Assembly (NCBI GenBank): GCA_963751275.1
Contig: CAVVTZ010000009.1
Location: forward strand, 352,001-416,000
Direction: 5' to 3'
DNA length: 64,000 nt
DNA from: an uncultured Gemmatimonadaceae bacterium
Lineage (GTDB): Bacteria; Gemmatimonadota; Gemmatimonadetes; Gemmatimonadales; Gemmatimonadaceae
Shown: positions 14,185-56,731 of the stretch, in pieces
Layout: each line of letters opens with the position of its first letter
Position numbering within the stretch: position 1 is the first letter of the stretch
Program-made: the position numbers and the translations under genes
Notes under the pieces: generated by a model
What the model was told of the DNA's origin: nothing
Databases searched by the model: none
What the model saw: only the letters and a program-made list of their open reading frames with translations

Positions 14185-14302
14185 CCGGGAACCGATTACC
14201 GGGAACCGGTGACGCATGAAAACACATGGCATCACGACTTCGCGCGATGTCGTGATGCCATGTATTGTCATGCCTCACCGGTTCCCGGTAATCGGTTCCC
14301 GG
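14185..14302. repeat. Palindromic element family B, copy 1
   Basis: Perfect 28-bp arms CCGGGAACCGATTACCGGGAACCGGTGA (14185-14212 / 14275-14302), then GCATGA/TCATGC, then a 15-bp inner stem ACATGGCATCACGAC/GTCGTGATGCCATGT. Confidence 0.92.
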
Positions 14303-29021: not shown

Positions 29022-29068
29022 GCGGGGAAGATAGCCGCCGGTGGTAGGGCGGCTACCCTGCTGAACTA

Positions 29069-29185
29069 CCGGGAACCGATTTCCGGGAACCGGTGTGGCA
29101 TAAAAAAGAATTCCCTAACGGCAGCATGTCGTGTCGTTAGGGAATGATTGTCATGCCTCACCGGTTCCCGGTCATCGGTTCCCGG
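29069..29185. repeat. Palindromic element family B, copy 2
   Basis: Same outer arms as 14185-14302 (near-identical) but a different 14-bp inner stem ATTCCCTAACGGCA/TGTCGTTAGGGAAT. Confidence 0.9.
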
Positions 29186-29199
29186 CGGTTAGTACTTCG

Positions 29200-44307: not shown

Positions 44308-44375
44308 CGGAGCTCCAGAGGGTTAGCGCGCGCTGAATATGAGACGCATGCACACCAGTTGCTAGAACCCCGAAG

Positions 44376-44566
44376 ACCGTGAGGCGTGAGACGCACCCCG
44401 AACACCGTGAGGCGTGAGGCGTGCGCCGAACCGATTGCACGGCGTGCGACGAAACCCGAACGCCGTGCGTGACTCGCGTTGTTCGGGTTTCGCCTAACGC
44501 CTCACAATCCGTTCGGCGCACGCCTCACGCCTCACGGTGTTCGGGGTGCGCCTCACGCCTCACGGT
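44376..44566. repeat. Palindromic element family E (GTGAGGC heptamers in about 28-nt units)
   Basis: Imperfect arms of about 85 bp, each with roughly 3 units of CCGAACACCGTGAGGCGTGAGGCGTGCG. The right arm supplies the stop codon of the DUF4349 gene. Confidence 0.88.
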
Positions 44567-45516
44567 GTTTCTGGAGCCTTCTTCGTGAGTCGCCGGAGGA
44601 TCATGATCACGCCCGCGACAGTAGCGACCAGGATGATGATCGTCGGGATGATCGTCCCCAGCGCGGCGATCAATCTCGCCGTGAATTGCACGAAGTTCCT
44701 CCAGCTCTGCTTGAACGCCTCCCCGATCACGCTCGTGCTGCCGCGCTGGCCGACCACGGGGTACGGCTCGTGCACGGTGATGCTGAGCGACGACACCGAC
44801 GTGCGCGCGCGCAGGTAACGGAGCCGCCCGTCCATGCGCTCGATCTCCTCGCGCACGCGCGCCAGCTCGCGCTCCACATCGAGCACGTCCTTGAGCTTGC
44901 CGGTCTTGGTCTCGAGCACCTGGATGAGGCGCTCCTCCAGCCGCCGCGAGTTGGCGGCGCGCGCGGTGACATCCACGAACTCCTCGCCCACATCCTCGGC
45001 CGAGACGTTCACCGACTCGATCTTACCGAGCGGGGTGAGGCCGTTGATCGCTTCGTCGAAGCGCGAGCTGGGGAGGCGGATCTCGAGCGTCGCGGACTTG
45101 ATCTGGTTGGGGCCGGCCTGCATCTGCGTATTGGCGACGAACCCGCCCACCCGCGCCGCGAGCGCGCGCACGCGCTGCACGCCGTTGGCGAGCGTGTCCA
45201 CCTGCACCGACGCGCTGCCGGTGCGGATGATCATGGTCGGGGTGAGCGTTTCCGTACCGAAGGCGGAGTTGGGGTGCACGGTCTGGGACGCCTGCTCCGC
45301 GGGCGCGTTCTCGGCGTCGGCGAGCGCTTGCCGAGTGCCGGCCATCCGTCCCGCGACGGAGATGTCCTTGGCCTTCAGTTCGTCGACGGAGGCGGGCGCC
45401 GCCATCGGTTGGCCATCCAGGCGGCTTTCGTTCTGCATCTTCGCCGGCTCGGCTTTGTCGCTGCAGGCGGCGATGAGCGTGATGGCGGCGAGCGTGGCGA
45501 GCATCGTGGTGCGCAT
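44560..45516 (-). CDS. DUF4349 domain lipoprotein
   Basis: Lipobox IAAC, IIRTGSASVQV, GGFVANT, EDVGEEFVDV, VERELARVREEIERMDGRLRYL, C-terminal TM. Confidence 0.88.
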   Translation of the reverse strand: MRTTMLATLAAITLIAACSDKAEPAKMQNESRLDGQPMAAPASVDELKAKDISVAGRMAGTRQALADAENAPAEQASQTVHPNSAFGTETLTPTMIIRTGSASVQVDTLANGVQRVRALAARVGGFVANTQMQAGPNQIKSATLEIRLPSSRFDEAINGLTPLGKIESVNVSAEDVGEEFVDVTARAANSRRLEERLIQVLETKTGKLKDVLDVERELARVREEIERMDGRLRYLRARTSVSSLSITVHEPYPVVGQRGSTSVIGEAFKQSWRNFVQFTARLIAALGTIIPTIIILVATVAGVIMILRRLTKKAPETP

Positions 45517-51019: not shown

Positions 51020-51156
51020 CTCCGGCCATAAGAGGAATGGTCTTGTTCCAAGCGGGCAGTACGATTCCATCATGTCCATCATGTTCATCCTGTCAAATGC
51101 TCTTTTCTCCAGCCTCCGGGAACTGCATCTGACAGGATGGACATGATGGACATGAT
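51020..51156. repeat. Palindromic element family A, copy 2 (inverted relative to copy 1)
   Basis: 27-bp arms 51069-51095 / 51130-51156, identical to copy 1 except one G.T. The loop and the 51020-51052 tail match copy 1 as reverse complement. Confidence 0.9.
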
Positions 51157-51182
51157 ATACATGGCCGGAGTCATCCTGTCCG

Positions 51183-53062
51183 TCAATCGCCGCCGCGAAC
51201 CACGCGCGATCGCGAGCTCCGCGCGCCCGAAGGGCGCCGAGACCTGCACGCCCTGCACGGCGCCGCGCACCCGCGCGAGCATCTCGCGCGCGATCGCGAC
51301 CCCCTCGGCGGCGGCGTGCTCCTTGGACTGCTCGTTCGCGCGGCGCATGCGCGCGACGATCGCGTCGGGCACCACCACGCCGGGCACCTCGTTCGCGAGG
51401 AACTCGGCGTTGCGCGCGGAGGTGAGCGGCCAGATGCCGGCCACCACCGGGATGCGCACGTGCTGCACCGACGCGAGGAAGCGCTCGAGCTGCGCCGCGT
51501 CGAACACCGGCTGCGTGACGGCGAACTCGGCGCCCGCCTCCACCTTGTACTCGAAGCGCTTGCGCTCCTGCGCCGCGTCGAGCGCCGCGGGATTCACGCC
51601 GACGCCGATGACGAAGCGCGTGGGTGCGCCGATGTCGTGGCCGCCGGGATCGAGCCCGTGATTGAGCCGGCTCACGAGATTCGTGAGGCCGATCGAGTCG
51701 ATGTCGAACACGGCGGTCGCGTCGGGATACGGCCCCATCTTCGGCGGATCGCCCGTGATCAGCAGGAGATTGCGGAGTCCCATCGCCGAGGCGCCGAGCA
51801 GGTCGCTCAGCATGCCGAGCAGATTGCGGTCGCGGCAGCAGTAGTGCGTGATCGTCTCGATGCCGACGCGCTGCTCGATGAGCAGCGACGTCATGAGCGC
51901 GCCCATGCGGCTCTGCGCGCGCGGCCCGTCGGGGACGTTCACGGCGTGCACGCCGGCGGCCTTCAAGGCGGCGACTGCTTCGAGCATCTTCGTCGCGTCC
52001 ACTCCCCTGGGCGGCACGATCTCCACCGAGGTGACGAATTCCCCGGCGGCGAGCCTCCGCGCCCAGTTCGAGCGCGTCGCGAAGGGGACGGGCTCAGCAC
52101 CCTTGGGTTCGGGAGTCGGGAGTCGGGAATCGACGGCACCGATCGTGCGCGGTCGATTCCCAAGTCCCGATTCCCGAACGTTGAGCCCCTTAATGCCGGC
52201 CACCATCGCGGAAATATGCTCCGGCGTTGTGCCGCAGCACCCGCCGATGATCTTGGCCCCAGCATGGAGCAAGTGCCGTGCATACGACGCCATGTACTCC
52301 GGGGAGGCCATGTACATCTGCCGTCCGCTCACATCCCGCGGCATGCCGGCGTTGGGCTGCGCGCTCAGCTTGCGCGTGGTGAGCGGCGCCATCTTCTCGA
52401 TCGCCTCGAGGATCGTCTGCGGACCGACGGAGCAGTTCAGGCCGATGATGTCGGCGCCCCAGCCGTCGAGCGCGCGCGCGATGTCCTCGGGGGAGGCGCC
52501 GAACGCGGTCATTCCGTCGGGACCGATCGTCATCTGCGCGATCACCGGCATCGTCGGCATCCACGTCGCGCGCGGCGAGAATGGCCTGCTCCATCTCCGC
52601 GAGGTCGCTGATCGTCTCGATGATGAAGCAGTCCGCGCCGCCGTCGCGCAGCGCGGTCATCTGCTCGCGGAAATGCGCGCGTGCCTCGTCGCGGCTCGTC
52701 GGGCCGAAGGGTTCGATGCGGATGCCGAGCGGACCGACCGCGCCGGCCACCAGCGCGCGCTCCCCGGCGGCCTCGCGCGCGATGCGCGCGGCGTTGCGGT
52801 TGAACTCGGCGACGTGCGACTCGAGCCCATGTTGCGCGAGCTTCACGCGATTCGCGCCGAAGCTGTTCGTCTCCAGCACCTGCGCGCCGGCGCGCACGTA
52901 CGCGTCGTGCACCTCGCGCACGAGCTCGGGCGCCCGCGTGTTGAGCTCGTCGTAGCATTGGTTGATGTAGACGCCCTTCGCATAGAGCATCGTGCCCATC
53001 GCGCCGTCGAAGACGATGACGCGCGCGGGATCGAGGAGGGTGGAGCAGTCGCGTGGGGTCAT
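51183..53062 (-). CDS. yitJ: Bifunctional homocysteine S-methyltransferase / 5,10-methylenetetrahydrofolate reductase (frameshift near 52560; 3' end uncertain, 51183 or 51085)
   Basis: FDGAMGTML, ETNSFGAN, GLNCSVGP, PNAGMP, GGCCGTTPEH, then MTHFR motifs VEIVPPRG, VNVPDG, HYCCRDRN, ITGDPP, FAVTQPVFD. Confidence 0.92.
52107..52179. repeat. Palindromic element family G inside the yitJ-like CDS
   Basis: GTTCGGGAGTCGGGAGTCGGGAATCGAC ... GTCGATTCCCAAGTCCCGATTCCCGAAC (28-bp arms, 3 mismatches), read in-frame as VRESGLGNRPRTIGAVDSRLPTPEP. Confidence 0.88.
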
Positions 53063-56000
53063 GGGGTCGCCTCGCCGGCACCGGCGCGCACGGCATAGTA
53101 TTTCGCGGCCGGGTGGTGCACGATGAGCGCGGCCGTGCTCTGCTCGGGGAGCAGCTGGTGCGCCGTCGTGAGCGACATGCCGAGCGCGCCGGCCGCGGGG
53201 AGCAGGCGGAACACCGTGTCGTGTCCATCCAGCTCCGGACAGGCCGGGTAACCCCACGAGTAGCGCTTCCCCTGTTGCGCGGGAATGCCGAGTTCGCGGC
53301 GGATGCGCTCGTGCATCCATTGCGCGGTCGCCTCGGCGGCTTCCACCGCGATGCCGTGCGCGTAGAACGCCTCGGAATATTCGCCGCGCGCCTGCAGCGC
53401 CTCGAACCGGCGCGACGCGGCATCGCCCACGGTCACCACCTGCACGGCGAGCACGTCGGTCTCCTCCGATTCCACGGAACGGAAATAGTCGGCGAGGCAG
53501 AGGTGTTCGCGCAATGCCTGGCGGGGGAAGGTGAAGCGCGCGATCTCGCGCCGCGATCCACCATCCGCGGCGAAGGCCGCCGGGTCGTACACGATGAGCT
53601 CGTTCCCGCTCGATTGCACCGGGAAGTATCCGTATACCGCCTGCGGCGCGATCCATCCTTCGTTGCGCGCCGACGCGGAGAGCCGCTCGAGGGCCGGCGT
53701 GAATTCCTCGCGCACGGCGCGCGTGTACTCATCGCCCGACCCGCGTCCGCCCCACTGCAGCCGGAACAGTTCGTCCAGGTCGAGCAGCGCGAGCACCTCG
53801 TCGAGCGGGATGTCGCGCACCACGCGCACGCCGAGGAAGGGCGGGGCGGGCACCGCGACATCCGCCGCGACGGCGCTGCGTGCGGTGCTCGTGCTGCCGG
53901 CCGCCGCGTCCTTGCCCGTGGCGGTGTGCAGGAAGACGTCGTCGCGCGCCTCGCGCAGATTGTCGCTCACCGCGCCGGCGCGGCGCGCCGGGTCCACGAG
54001 GCGCTCCATGGTGTCCAGCCCCTCGAACGCGTCCTTGCAATAGAAGACGCCCGGCGCGTAGGCCCGCTCACCCTCCACGAAGAGCGCACGGCGACCGAAG
54101 CGGCGGTTGATCGCCGCGCCGCCGATGAGCACGGGCATCGCGAGCCCGCGCCGGTCGAGCTCCTGCACGCACAGCGGCATCTGTTTCGAGGTGGAAACCA
54201 GCAGCGCCGAGAGTCCCACGGCGTCGGCCTTGTGCTCCACGGCCGCGTCCACGATGCGGTTCACCGGCACCTGCTTGCCGAGATCCACCACGGTGTAGCC
54301 GTTGTTCGAGAGGATCGTGTTGACGAGCGATTTCCCGATGTCGTGCACGTCGCCGTACACGGTGGCGAGGACGATCGTGCCCTTGGTGTAGCCTTCCTTC
54401 CGTTCGAGGAACAGCTCGAGATGCTTGACGGCGCGCTTCATCACCTCGGCGCTCTGCAGCACGAATGGCAGGATCAACTCTCCGGCACCGAACTTGTCGC
54501 CGACTTCCTTCATCGCGGGCAGCAGCACCTCGTTGAGCACGCGCACGGGATCCTTCCTCACACCTGCCGTGTCGAGCGCATCCTCGATCCCTTCCTTGCG
54601 GCGATGCACCACCATCCACGATACGACCGCGTCGGCGCTCAGCCCGGCCAGCGGATCCGCCGCGGCCGTTCCGGCAGGCGAGAGCCGGCCGCCGCCAGCC
54701 TCGTATTTCTGAATGAACCGCGAGAGCGCATCGGGCCGCCGGTTGAACACCAGGTCATCCGCGAGCGCGCGTTCCTCGCCATCCAGCTCGGCGTACGGCC
54801 GCACATGCGCCGGATTCACGATCGCCATGTCCAGCCCCGCCTGCACGCAGTGGTGCAGGAACACCGAGTTGAGCACGGCGCGCGCGTCGGGGGTGAGGCC
54901 GAAGCTCACGTTGCTCACGCCGAGCGATGTGAACACGCCGGGCAGCTCACGCTTGATGAGCGTGATCCCTTCGATCGTCTCCACCGCGCTCGCCACCCAC
55001 TCGGCCTCGCCGGTGGCGAGCGTGAAGGTGAGCGCGTCGAAGATCAGATCGCCGGGCTCGAGACCGAACTCGCCGGTCGCGAGATCGTGGATGCGCCGCG
55101 CGATCTCGAGCTTCCGCTCCCGCGTCTTGGCCATGCCGGTCTCGTCGATCGTGAGCGCGACCACCGCGGCGCCGAACTGCTTCACCACGGGCAGCAGCGC
55201 GTCGATCTTCGCGCGCCCCGCCTCGAGGTTCACGGAATTCACCACCGCGCGCCCGGGCACGTGCTCCAGCGCGCGCGCGATCACCTCGGGCTCGGTGGAA
55301 TCGATCATGAGCGGCGCCTCGACGGTCATCGACAGCAGCTTCACCACGCGCGCCATCTGCTCCGCCTCGTCCGCCCGCTCGGTGAGCGCCACGCACACGT
55401 CCAGCACGTGCGCGCCGGCCTCCACCTGCTCGCGCGCCACGCGCGCGATCCCCTCGTAATCATCGGCGAGCAGCATGCGCTTGACCGCGCGGCTGCCTTG
55501 GGCGTTGACGCGCTCGCCGATGATCAACGGCGCTGGATCTTGATGCAGGGTTATCGCCCGCATGGCGCTCGAGATTCGCGGCGTTCGGGAGTCGGGAGTC
55601 GGGAATCGCGAACCCCGCCGTCGACTCCCGACTCCCGACTCCCGAACATGTCGAACCACGTGCTCCAAGTGCTCCGGCGTGGTGCCACAGCACCCGCCGA
55701 CGATGGCGACACCGAAGTCCCGAACGAACTCGGAGAGCGCCAAGGCCAATGGCTCCGGCTCCAACGGATACACCGCGTCCCCCGAGCCCGTATTAAGCGG
55801 CAACCCCGCGTTCGGGATGCAGCTCACCGGCAGCCGCGCGTGTTCGGCGAGCCACCGGATGGGCTCGCGCATGTGCTCGGGACCCGTGGAGCAATTCAGG
55901 CCGATCACGTCCACGCCGAGCGCTTCGAGCGTCGTCATCGCGCTCGCGATGTCGGTGCCGAGCAGCATGCGGCCGCTCGTGTCGAGCGTCACCTGTGCCT

Positions 56001-56592
56001 GGAGCGCCACGCGGCGCCCCAGTTCGGCGAAGAGGCGCTCGATGCCGGCGATCGCGGCCTTCACCTCCAGGATGTCCTGCGCCGTCTCGAGGAGCAGCAC
56101 ATCCACGCCGCCTTCCACGAGCGCCGCCGCCTGCGCGTGGAACTCGGCGCTCAATTCGCCGAACGAGACCGCGGAGAGCGTGGGGTCGGCGCTCGACGGG
56201 AGCATGCCGGTGGGGCCCATGGAGCCGGCGACGAAGCGCGGGCGGCCATCGTGCGCCGCCGCATCGCACGCCGCGCGCGCGAGGCGTGCGGCCTCGACAT
56301 TGATGTCGCGCGCGCGGGCGGCCAATCCCCACTCGCCCAGCCGGCGCGGCGTGCTCTGGAAGGTGCAGGTCTCCACGACGTCGCATCCTACGGCGAGGAA
56401 CGACTCGTGGATGCCGCGGATCACGTCGGGGCGCGTGAGCACGAGGTGGTCATTGCAGCCGGCGAGCGCGTCACCGCCGAAATCGAGCGCGGTGAGCTGT
56501 GCGCGCTGGATGTTCGTACCCATCGCGCCGTCGTAGACGAGCGTGCCGCGCGCGAGCGCGTCCAGGTACGGTGACGGGAATCGGCGAGCCAT
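53059..56592 (-). CDS. metH: Cobalamin-dependent methionine synthase
   Basis: YDGAMGT, GLNCSTGP, GGCCGTTPEH, IIGERVN pterin domain, GDVHDIGKSLV cobalamin motif, RYSWGYPACP reactivation domain. Confidence 0.97.
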   Translation of the reverse strand: MARRFPSPYLDALARGTLVYDGAMGTNIQRAQLTALDFGGDALAGCNDHLVLTRPDVIRGIHESFLAVGCDVVETCTFQSTPRRLGEWGLAARARDINVEAARLARAACDAAAHDGRPRFVAGSMGPTGMLPSSADPTLSAVSFGELSAEFHAQAAALVEGGVDVLLLETAQDILEVKAAIAGIERLFAELGRRVALQAQVTLDTSGRMLLGTDIASAMTTLEALGVDVIGLNCSTGPEHMREPIRWLAEHARLPVSCIPNAGLPLNTGSGDAVYPLEPEPLALALSEFVRDFGVAIVGGCCGTTPEHLEHVVRHVRESGVGSRRRGSRFPTPDSRTPRISSAMRAITLHQDPAPLIIGERVNAQGSRAVKRMLLADDYEGIARVAREQVEAGAHVLDVCVALTERADEAEQMARVVKLLSMTVEAPLMIDSTEPEVIARALEHVPGRAVVNSVNLEAGRAKIDALLPVVKQFGAAVVALTIDETGMAKTRERKLEIARRIHDLATGEFGLEPGDLIFDALTFTLATGEAEWVASAVETIEGITLIKRELPGVFTSLGVSNVSFGLTPDARAVLNSVFLHHCVQAGLDMAIVNPAHVRPYAELDGEERALADDLVFNRRPDALSRFIQKYEAGGGRLSPAGTAAADPLAGLSADAVVSWMVVHRRKEGIEDALDTAGVRKDPVRVLNEVLLPAMKEVGDKFGAGELILPFVLQSAEVMKRAVKHLELFLERKEGYTKGTIVLATVYGDVHDIGKSLVNTILSNNGYTVVDLGKQVPVNRIVDAAVEHKADAVGLSALLVSTSKQMPLCVQELDRRGLAMPVLIGGAAINRRFGRRALFVEGERAYAPGVFYCKDAFEGLDTMERLVDPARRAGAVSDNLREARDDVFLHTATGKDAAAGSTSTARSAVAADVAVPAPPFLGVRVVRDIPLDEVLALLDLDELFRLQWGGRGSGDEYTRAVREEFTPALERLSASARNEGWIAPQAVYGYFPVQSSGNELIVYDPAAFAADGGSRREIARFTFPRQALREHLCLADYFRSVESEETDVLAVQVVTVGDAASRRFEALQARGEYSEAFYAHGIAVEAAEATAQWMHERIRRELGIPAQQGKRYSWGYPACPELDGHDTVFRLLPAAGALGMSLTTAHQLLPEQSTAALIVHHPAAKYYAVRAGAGEATP
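55583..55647. repeat. Palindromic element family G inside metH
   Basis: GTTCGGGAGTCGGGAGTCGGGAATCG (identical to the 52107 arm) ... CGACTCCCGACTCCCGACTCCCGAAC, read in-frame as VRESGVGSRRRGSRFPTPDSRT. Confidence 0.9.
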
Positions 56593-56612: not shown

Positions 56613-56647
56613 AAGAAAAAAATGCCCGGTGCGCACAGGCACCCGGC
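56613..56647 (-). terminator. Intrinsic terminator in the metH leader (riboswitch expression platform)
   Basis: Minus strand GCCGGGTGC-CTGTGC-GCACCGGGC (one mismatch) followed by ATTTTTTTCTTT, upstream of the metH ATG. Confidence 0.65.
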
Positions 56648-56649
56648 CG

Positions 56650-56704
56650 GCGCTTTAGCTGAATATTTAACGTGGCCGCAAGTTGCCTGAAATCGCCACG
56701 GAAC
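56650..56704 (-). ncRNA. SAM-II (SAM-alpha)-type riboswitch aptamer
   Basis: Minus strand CCGTGGCGATTTCAGGCAACTTGCGGCCACGTTAAATATTCAGCTAAAG: P1 CGTGG/CCACG, GATTT...TTGC loop, TTAAA linker and GCTAAA pseudoknot strand, directly upstream of metH. Confidence 0.85.
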
Positions 56705-56731
56705 CGTTGTGCTCCCTCTATAGGACGAATG

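What the first reader, a model, noticed from the sequence alone, without database searches (positions are those of the whole stretch)
52107..55647. The same palindromic element sits in-frame at the equivalent linker of both metH and yitJ
Seen: a (GGGAGTC)n hairpin with an identical 26-nt arm lies inside two neighbouring genes (52107-52179 and 55583-55647). In both it is in the same orientation and frame (VRESG...), 7-12 codons after the GGCCGTTPEH Zn-ligand motif that ends the homocysteine-binding domain. It adds about 22-25 atypical residues (ESGVGSR, PTPDSR) to the inter-domain linker. Coding-region palindromes are established for Rickettsia RPEs. Inference: the shared site in two paralogous domains implies a sequence or structure-specific target, gene conversion between paralogues, or a selected mRNA hairpin (pausing, cleavage, differential stability) in a SAM-riboswitch-controlled operon.
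Basis: partly seen in the sequence, partly recalled or inferred. Interest (0 to 1): 0.72.

Follow-up and report, generated by a model that had tools for sequence, protein, structure and literature searches.

The report
Rewritten repeat hairpins in enzyme linkers
Two neighbouring methionine-synthesis genes each carry, in frame, a hairpin built of 7-base repeats in a floppy protein linker; these are two of about a hundred copies of a genome-wide repeat, and related bacteria have different repeat letters at exactly the same spots, so the hairpins are likely tolerated passengers overwritten in place rather than a methionine-specific signal.

Summary
Both hairpins are real and in frame, but they are not specific to methionine genes. 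They belong to a CGGGA-NN triple-heptamer family with 94 loci in this genome. Heptamer arrays lie inside 16 unrelated genes. The hairpins add no net length: linkers are 59 and 73 codons, against medians of 59 and 76 in array-free orthologues. The same two linkers carry heptamer arrays of many other units in 16 of 74 cases across 40 other genera, against 3 of 819 control windows. Double hits are no more frequent than independence predicts.

Three congeners have hairpins at the same positions but with other letters. In yitJ the alignment is gapless and only 1 of 3 changed pairs is compensated. At 22 of 26 orthologous sites the repeat type differs wholly. Congener arms match 33-34 of 35 bases of arms around four-helix-bundle (PF05635) genes; this genome's arms match no such cassette.

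Best reading: tolerated gene-less copies, likely overwritten in place from other copies. The scan noted this system before, on other DNA and in this genome. New variant of a known kind.

The parts
55583..55647 (-). Triple-heptamer hairpin in frame in the MetH homocysteine-to-folate domain linker (VRESGVGSRRRGSRFPTPDSRT)
   Evidence: (z -8.1)
55622..55647 (-). metH mRNA-5' arm, CGGGA-GT/GT/GT
55583..55608 (+). metH mRNA-3' arm; on + it reads as the 26-mer GT/GT/AT consensus arm (5 copies in the genome)
52107..52179 (-). Triple-heptamer hairpin in frame in the YitJ homocysteine-to-MTHFR domain linker (VRESGLGNR...DSRLPTPEP)
   Evidence: (z -5.9)
52154..52179 (-). yitJ mRNA-5' arm, units AT/CT/AT; the middle unit keeps the CT type that all three congeners have throughout
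52107..52132 (+). yitJ mRNA-3' arm, identical to 55583-55608
55669..55698 (-). GGCCGTTPEH-coding motif of metH (its zinc-ligand role is recalled, not tested)
52216..52245 (-). GGCCGTTPEH-coding motif of yitJ
53059..56592 (-). metH, cobalamin-dependent methionine synthase, 1177 aa
51085..53062 (-). yitJ (homocysteine S-methyltransferase + MTHFR). Its start overlaps the metH stop. It reads in two frames because of one extra base near 52558, likely an assembly error
   Evidence: contigs of relatives in 3 of 4 runs lack that base
56631..56709 (-). SAM-II (SAM_alpha, RF00521) riboswitch upstream of metH; operon context, not part of the element
   Evidence: 43.3 bits, gathering 36

Best explanation
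The two hairpins are copies of a genome-wide family of inverted triple-heptamer repeats that sit in two variable protein linkers, likely as tolerated passengers inherited from an ancestor of the four closest genomes, and their arms are likely overwritten in place from other copies of the family, a process in which the small four-helix-bundle (PF05635) gene found between such arms may take part. SHOWN: three 7-mers make 21 nt, so an arm keeps the frame, and CGGGA-GT/AT/CT has no stop in any frame. The linkers vary in length and sequence across the family. The hairpins replace linker sequence rather than add to it. Position is kept between genomes while the two variable letters of each unit change to genome-typical types. 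INFERRED: persistence is by tolerance, not by a methionine-specific target (about 0.85). One inherited element was changed in place, not re-inserted (about 0.7). The new letters were copied from dispersed copies in a single length-neutral step, because a 7-nt slip inside a gene would shift the frame (about 0.55). The Avd-like four-helix-bundle protein promotes the copying (about 0.3, untested).
For: Abundance: 94 CGGGA-NN loci; 123 arm calls against 0 in the reversed genome. Heptamer arrays lie inside 16 of 2771 called genes, among them DnaX, a 2-oxoacid acyltransferase, UvrA-like, V-ATPase A, B and E, an aldehyde dehydrogenase and a NYN protein. Most lie between or at the edge of Pfam domains; V-ATPase B and E and the FTCD protein carry theirs inside a matched stretch. 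Stop-free families are inside genes more often than stop-bearing ones, 16 of 160 vs 3 of 115, p = 0.017. Tolerance: linker lengths run 51-93 (MetH, n = 34) and 67-92 codons (YitJ, n = 40). Arrays occur in 9 of 34 and 7 of 40, against 3 of 819 control windows, and period 7 is specific (0-1 of 74 for periods 5, 8, 10, 11). In place: the yitJ hairpin aligns without internal gaps to G002, G004 and G005, with the same arm positions and loop length, and the metH 5' arm starts at the same base in all four. Of 30 valid orthologous sites against G005, 26 keep an arm and 22 of these have a wholly different type. Arm types differ by genome (RT 21 of 43 vs 3 of 49; AG 0 vs 15; p = 5e-8). Common template: unlinked RT arms share an ordered pattern (unit 2 G in 31 of 33, unit 3 G in 5 of 33). 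The G002 and G005 metH arms agree in only 29 of 35 bases although metH is 95% identical, yet each matches a PF05635-cassette arm in 33-34 of 35. All eight PF05635 proteins with CGGGA-type arms form one clade, 98/96, among 17.
Against: No PF05635 cassette with this genome's GT/AT arms was found. The metH arm matches the genome's own CGGGA-clade cassette in 18 of 35 bases, and 0 of 80 public loci with the exact 23-mer have such a gene within 700 bp. The G005 metH arm matches a cassette of G002 (34 of 35) better than the one found in G005 (28 of 35). No Y1 transposase or reverse transcriptase was found in this 83%-complete genome, so no catalyst is identified. 'All three units differ' (23 of 31 arm pairs) is close to the binomial expectation of 19, and the conservation of CGGGA is built into my arm caller. 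The metH loops differ in length between genomes, which also fits re-insertion. The control windows are conserved domains, so the enrichment cannot tell tolerance from targeting. These assemblies have indel errors. The protein groups on the tree were labelled by me, and kin share labels.
Confidence: 0.6

Rival explanations
1. Independent re-insertion: a MITE-like element jumps repeatedly into the same permissive spots, and each lineage received its own current version, with nearby deletions restoring linker length.
For: Many different heptamers occupy these linkers in unrelated genera. The metH loop length and inner stem differ between G000, G005 and G002/G004. 4 of 30 orthologous sites have no arm in G005. 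Whole PF05635 cassettes differ at one orthologous locus.
Against: The yitJ hairpin has identical boundaries and loop length in four genomes, and one G000 unit still has the congeners' type. No target duplication is seen at either site. No Y1 transposase was found; other transposase families were not searched.
Confidence: 0.15
2. Local homogenisation plus selection: a mutation in one unit is copied to its neighbours and to the other arm by transient mispairing, and a repeat-binding protein or structure (possibly the four-helix-bundle pentamer, or a G-quadruplex) selects genome-specific versions.
For: Needs no unknown enzyme. Within-arm identity at the two variable positions is higher (0.51-0.94) than between genomes (0.28, 0.58). 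GGGAATC repeats of four units form G-quadruplexes in vitro (PMC4692102, abstract, introduction and passages).
Against: Local copying gives uniform arms, but 26 of 33 clean RT arms are G-G-A or A-G-A. The inner extension CGCCGCGGGA follows 1 of 48 RT arms but 14 of 15 CG arms. Arms here have three G-tracts, not four.
Confidence: 0.13
3. Selected mRNA hairpins tune the SAM-controlled metH-yitJ message by ribosome pausing between domains or by RNase III cleavage.
For: Very stable stems, kept at both sites in four genomes. The metH stem is fully re-paired after the letter change. RNase III cuts a 28-bp IVS stem that holds three heptamers (PMC4990558, passages) and Correia elements in mRNA (PMC10969869, passages).
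Against: Absent from most relatives with the same operon. G001 and G003 have single arms that do not fold (z 0.0 to -2.0). In yitJ 1 of 3 changed pairs is compensated and covariation is not above shuffles, 126 of 500 (only 4 related rows). The same design occurs in unrelated genes. A side effect on the mRNA is not excluded.
Confidence: 0.08
4. Gene conversion between the metH and yitJ paralogues copied the element from one linker to the other.
For: One 26-nt arm is identical, and the motif-coding DNA upstream is nearly identical over about 30 nt.
Against: The 26-mer has three more copies elsewhere. The distance from motif to arm differs by 15 nt, the loops and 5' arms differ, and the other flanks are unrelated. 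In G002 and G004 the two linkers differ in type. In other genera both linkers are hit in 3 of 34 genomes, as independence predicts (p = 0.35).
Confidence: 0.04

Closest known systems
GGGAATC/GGGNATC heptamer repeats of Xanthomonas and Nostoc (PMC4692102; abstract, introduction and passages seen)
   Same: Same heptamer class, mostly intergenic, often in inverted pairs, 7-11% overlapping ORFs in Xanthomonas, 83% kept at the same place between two species. The exact 23-mer occurs in Xanthomonas, Lysobacter and cyanobacteria.
   Different: Three units per arm rather than four. The passages I saw do not describe a change of repeat type at fixed sites or a link to a four-helix-bundle gene. Supplements were not read.
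Rickettsia palindromic elements, RPE (as reviewed in PMC10969869, passages)
   Same: Palindromic repeats translated in frame in unrelated genes, also found between genes.
   Different: RPEs are about 150 bp and encode a conserved peptide. These are 65-73 bp of tandem heptamers, the peptide changes with the repeat type (RESGVGS vs RDSGLGT), and linker length is not increased.
REPIN-RAYT systems (REPORTH preprint 10.1101/2024.10.14.618302, passages and Results section; PMC3116915 seen as listing only)
   Same: Paired inverted repeats with a partner gene; different repeat types at orthologous places, proposed there to be overwritten.
   Different: No Y1/RAYT transposase was found here. The arms are tandem heptamers rather than REPs. 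The partner candidate is a PF05635 protein, and the overwriting reaches into translated sequence.
ORF-bearing 23S rRNA intervening sequences with S23p/PF05635 (Coxiella; PMC4990558, passages)
   Same: A four-helix-bundle ORF inside a terminal stem with three tandem heptamers upstream. This genome's cassette protein matches Xcc0516, 2gsc (E 4e-21).
   Different: The hairpins studied here are gene-less and lie in mRNA, not rRNA. Excision by RNase III was not tested.
Diversity-generating retroelements (Avd likeness of PF05635 per PMC10053308, passages)
   Same: An Avd-like pentamer, and replacement of one repeat by a copy of another.
   Different: No reverse transcriptase was found. No template/variable repeat pair or adenine-directed pattern was shown; the main change is G/A versus C at one heptamer position.

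Membership tests
GGGNATC-type heptamer repeats (PMC4692102) | Tandem G-rich 7-mer of the GGGA(A/G/C)TC kind, dispersed, mostly intergenic, often inverted pairs | tested here: met
GGGNATC-type heptamer repeats (PMC4692102) | Four units able to form a G-quadruplex | tested here: not met
   Three units per arm at both sites. A fourth G-run lies in the metH loop, but folding into a quadruplex was not tested.
Rickettsia palindromic elements | Palindrome translated in frame in unrelated host genes | tested here: met
Rickettsia palindromic elements | About 150 bp insert adding a conserved peptide | tested here: not met
   65-73 bp; the peptide differs among congeners; no net length gain
MITE | Target-site duplication and terminal repeats shared with an autonomous transposon | tested here: inconclusive
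   No direct repeat flanks either hairpin. Empty sites in G005 are too diverged to read junctions. Only the Y1 family was searched.
REPIN-RAYT | Cognate RAYT (Y1_Tnp) gene in the genome | tested here: not met
   0 matches in an 83%-complete genome; absence is not proven
REPIN-RAYT | Different repeat types at orthologous places | tested here: met
   22 of 26 occupied sites
23S rRNA IVS with S23p ORF | PF05635 ORF inside the stem, located in rRNA | tested here: not met
   The two hairpins are gene-less and lie in coding genes. Related arms enclose PF05635 genes elsewhere.
23S rRNA IVS with S23p ORF | Excision by RNase III | not testable with these tools
   No RNA run was listed
Diversity-generating retroelement | Reverse transcriptase plus template and variable repeat | tested here: not met
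   0 PF00078 matches in an 83%-complete genome

The most novel reading that the evidence does not exclude
An Avd-like four-helix-bundle protein drives a transposase-free homing system that copies its own flanking heptamer arms over older arms anywhere in the chromosome, including inside translated genes, so that it rewrites seven codons of enzymes such as methionine synthase in one frame-neutral step.
Probability: 0.22. Interest if true: 0.85.

Novelty: new variant of a known kind. Interest (0 to 1): 0.48.

Why it matters
Heptamer repeats are abundant in bacteria and their way of spreading is unexplained. In-frame copies are the most constraining cases: a 7-base slip would break the gene, so the gapless change of both arms in yitJ must be length-neutral. 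That narrows the mechanism to templated overwriting or strong selection, and gives a concrete reporter for testing a function of the PF05635 (Avd-like) family. It also warns annotators that odd linker peptides such as RESGVGSR or TPDSRLP can come from a repeat and are not methionine-specific motifs. As a methionine-pathway regulatory finding it is ordinary.

Tried and rejected
Target motif shared by the two sites: rejected, the common GTT is part of the element. Paralogue conversion: rejected. Net peptide insertion: rejected. Rfam found only the riboswitch in the window. Y1 transposase and reverse transcriptase: not found in the 83%-complete genome. Expression: no RNA holder was listed, and all 24 runs held under a tenth of the words. 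Four DNA runs laid gave only relatives' contigs, useful for the frameshift but not for the hairpins. Mutational halo, a lead from an earlier scan note: within this genome A+T at fourfold sites is 106 of 672 near internal arrays vs 157 of 3048 far, and divergence from G005 is 120 of 310 vs 448 of 1497. At the metH and yitJ linkers of 40 other genera, array-bearing and array-free cases do not differ (p = 0.16), so the halo is inconclusive and is not used. The z-scores were partly mis-anchored and were replaced. Site 50 (an anchor from another contig, likely a paralogue) was dropped, leaving 30 of 31. Literature searches showed no paper on palindromes in MetH or YitJ linkers, and none on heptamer hairpins rewritten with PF05635 cassettes. 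The library lacks most subscription papers, and no supplements were read.
Full report
OBSERVATION. The window holds metH (53059-56592, minus) and yitJ (51085-53062, minus) behind a SAM-II riboswitch. yitJ reads in two frames because of one extra base near 52558, which contigs of relatives lack in 3 of 4 runs. Each gene has a hairpin at the stated place, with folding z-scores of -8.1 and -5.9. Each arm is three copies of CGGGA plus two variable letters (XY). One arm of 26 nt is identical in both genes, but it has 5 copies in the genome. Both hairpins are translated, starting VRESG, 7 and 12 codons after GGCCGTTPEH. The zinc-ligand role of that motif is recalled.

THE ELEMENT IS COMMON. Period-7 runs stand out in this genome: 227, against 9 or fewer for periods 4, 5, 8, 10 and 11. 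The CGGGA-XY family has 94 loci, with 123 arm calls against 0 in the reversed genome. Gene calls come from my own codon model and are approximate. Arrays of all heptamer families lie inside 16 of 2771 called genes: DnaX, a 2-oxoacid acyltransferase, V-ATPase A, B and E, an aldehyde dehydrogenase, a NYN protein and others. Most sit between or at the edge of Pfam domains, but not all. Three 7-mers keep the frame, and families without a stop codon are inside genes more often (16 of 160 vs 3 of 115). One neighbouring pair of hit genes is expected with P = 0.17; two were seen (P = 0.013). This agrees with general clustering: 94 of 178 loci lie within 4 kb of another, against 66 plus or minus 8 at random.

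THE HAIRPINS REPLACE LINKER SEQUENCE. Motif-to-anchor distances are 59 codons (MetH) and 73 (YitJ). Twelve orthologues from other genera without evident repeats have 54-63 for MetH; G024 and G017, which carry relics, were set aside (one of the twelve is the unpublished G012, and the range holds without it). In 40 further genera, one genome each, picked blind to linker content from the 164 matches, array-free medians are 59 and 76. The solved MetH 8ssc is 8 residues shorter here. The whole family has longer linkers than distant homologues (51 and 62-63 codons), so an ancient insertion cannot be excluded.

THE LINKERS ARE REFILLED. All 6 genomes of the genus have heptamer arrays in both linkers: full hairpins in G000, G002, G004 and G005, and single arms of another unit in G001 and G003 (scores 11-14 of 14). 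In the 40 other genera 9 of 34 metH and 7 of 40 yitJ linkers score 12 or more, with many different units, against 3 of 819 control windows. Other periods give 0-1 of 74. A few of the 16 are pure G+C runs and may be chance. Both linkers are hit in 3 of 34 genomes, as independence predicts (p = 0.35). The controls are conserved domains, so this shows tolerance but does not exclude targeting.

SAME PLACE, OTHER LETTERS. The yitJ hairpin aligns with three congeners without internal gaps. They have CT in all six units; this genome has AT-CT-AT and GT-GT-AT. One changed pair is compensated and two are mismatched. At metH the 5' arm begins at the same base in four genomes but reads GT-GT-GT, CT-CT-CT, CG-AG-AG and CG-CT-AG. 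I compared contig C9 with 800 kb of syntenic G005 DNA (83% identical in the first 400 kb). Of 30 valid sites, 26 keep an arm, 22 with a wholly different type and 3 with the same. Types are genome-specific (p = 5e-8). The caveats are that CGGGA conservation is built into the caller, and that the count of arms differing in all three units (23 of 31) is near the binomial expectation of 19. The stronger sign of a shared template is the ordered pattern in unlinked arms: G-G-A 15, A-G-A 11, G-G-G 5 and 2 others of 33.

LINK TO FOUR-HELIX-BUNDLE GENES. This genome has 6 PF05635 matches and five congeners have 4-13 each. Nearly all of the 20 loci inspected have inverted repeat arms, mostly of heptamers. 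The G002 metH arm matches its own cassette in 33 of 35 bases and the G005 arm matches a G002 cassette in 34 of 35, while the two metH arms agree in 29 of 35. An orthologous cassette has GACTGAC arms here and GGCTGTC arms in G005, and the acyltransferase linker shows the same switch. The eight proteins with CGGGA-type arms form one clade among 17 full-length rows; partial hits were left out and the labels are mine. Against this, no cassette with GT/AT arms was found here (18 of 35 to the own cassette), none lies near 80 public loci with the 23-mer, and no Y1 transposase or reverse transcriptase was found. The protein matches Xcc0516, which a paper relates to Avd.

MECHANISM. An ancestor of the four close genomes likely acquired gene-less hairpins in two linkers that accept almost any sequence. 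Frame-neutral, stop-free arms let them persist. Their arms were then likely overwritten, arm by arm, by the versions current in each lineage. A unit-by-unit slip would pass through frameshifts, so in yitJ the change was likely a length-neutral, templated replacement. The catalyst is unknown, and a role for PF05635 is a hypothesis. Rivals are re-insertion (0.15), local homogenisation with selection (0.13), a selected mRNA hairpin (0.08) and paralogue conversion (0.04).

COMPARISON. The heptamer class is published for Xanthomonas and Nostoc, translated palindromes for Rickettsia, possible overwriting at fixed places for REPINs, and three heptamers beside an S23p gene for the Coxiella IVS. The element works like an RPE in effect and like a REPIN in turnover, but fails defining tests for both. 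I found no paper joining these parts. Earlier notes of this scan describe the same system in other genomes and in this one. They are unchecked and not independent support. My link to PF05635 was stated before and the site comparison came. The lineage was not established by a dedicated call; Gemmatimonadota is my impression.

VERDICT. Real feature, partly mis-described. Not a methionine-specific target or signal. A clear in-frame example of an unexplained repeat system that changes in place. New variant of a known kind; interest 0.48.

Noticed in passing
window 51060-51170: A hairpin of 8/9-nt units (GGACATGAT, GACAGGAT) overlaps the called 3' end of yitJ. The same arms flank two GxxExxY (PF13366) genes on contig C7. 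The odd C-terminus of YitJ suggests a second indel near 51210, not tested.
   Followed up: partly
window 14185-14302 and 29064-29190: Long gene-less hairpins whose arms are of the same type as those around this genome's PF05635 cassette L031.
   Followed up: partly
window 44373-44569: Hairpin with 98-nt arms of the most common family (ACGCCTC, 66 arrays, none inside genes). G005 has a related but different repeat at this and four other orthologous sites and none at one.
   Followed up: partly
L135 (G000:C9:154528-159512): Three genes of one V-type ATPase operon (A, B, E) each carry an in-frame heptamer array.
   Followed up: partly
L148 (G000:C14:15500-27000): Four CGGGA-RT hairpins lie between genes of the ribosomal protein and EF-Tu/EF-G operon, 4-6 bases from the downstream coordinate neighbour.
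   Followed up: no
L147 (G000:C9:280000-281300): A gene 3' end with its terminator-like stem and a single repeat arm occurs twice, about 820 bases apart, around DNA of different composition. It looks like an integration with end duplication.
   Followed up: no
L031, L082, L092, L080: One orthologous locus holds PF05635 cassettes with three different arm types and different proteins in four genomes, which points to whole-cassette swapping.
   Followed up: partly
G000, genome-wide: Fourfold sites within 120 nt of arrays are richer in A+T and show a strand-polar C/G skew. The effect was not seen at metH and yitJ linkers of other genera.
   Followed up: partly
L142 (G000:C12:17802-19049): Two opposed arms lie in frame about 190 nt apart inside one BatA-domain gene, and both are of the CT type in G005.
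   Followed up: partly
window 56631-56709: The riboswitch is of the SAM-II class, which Rfam describes as alphaproteobacterial.
   Followed up: no
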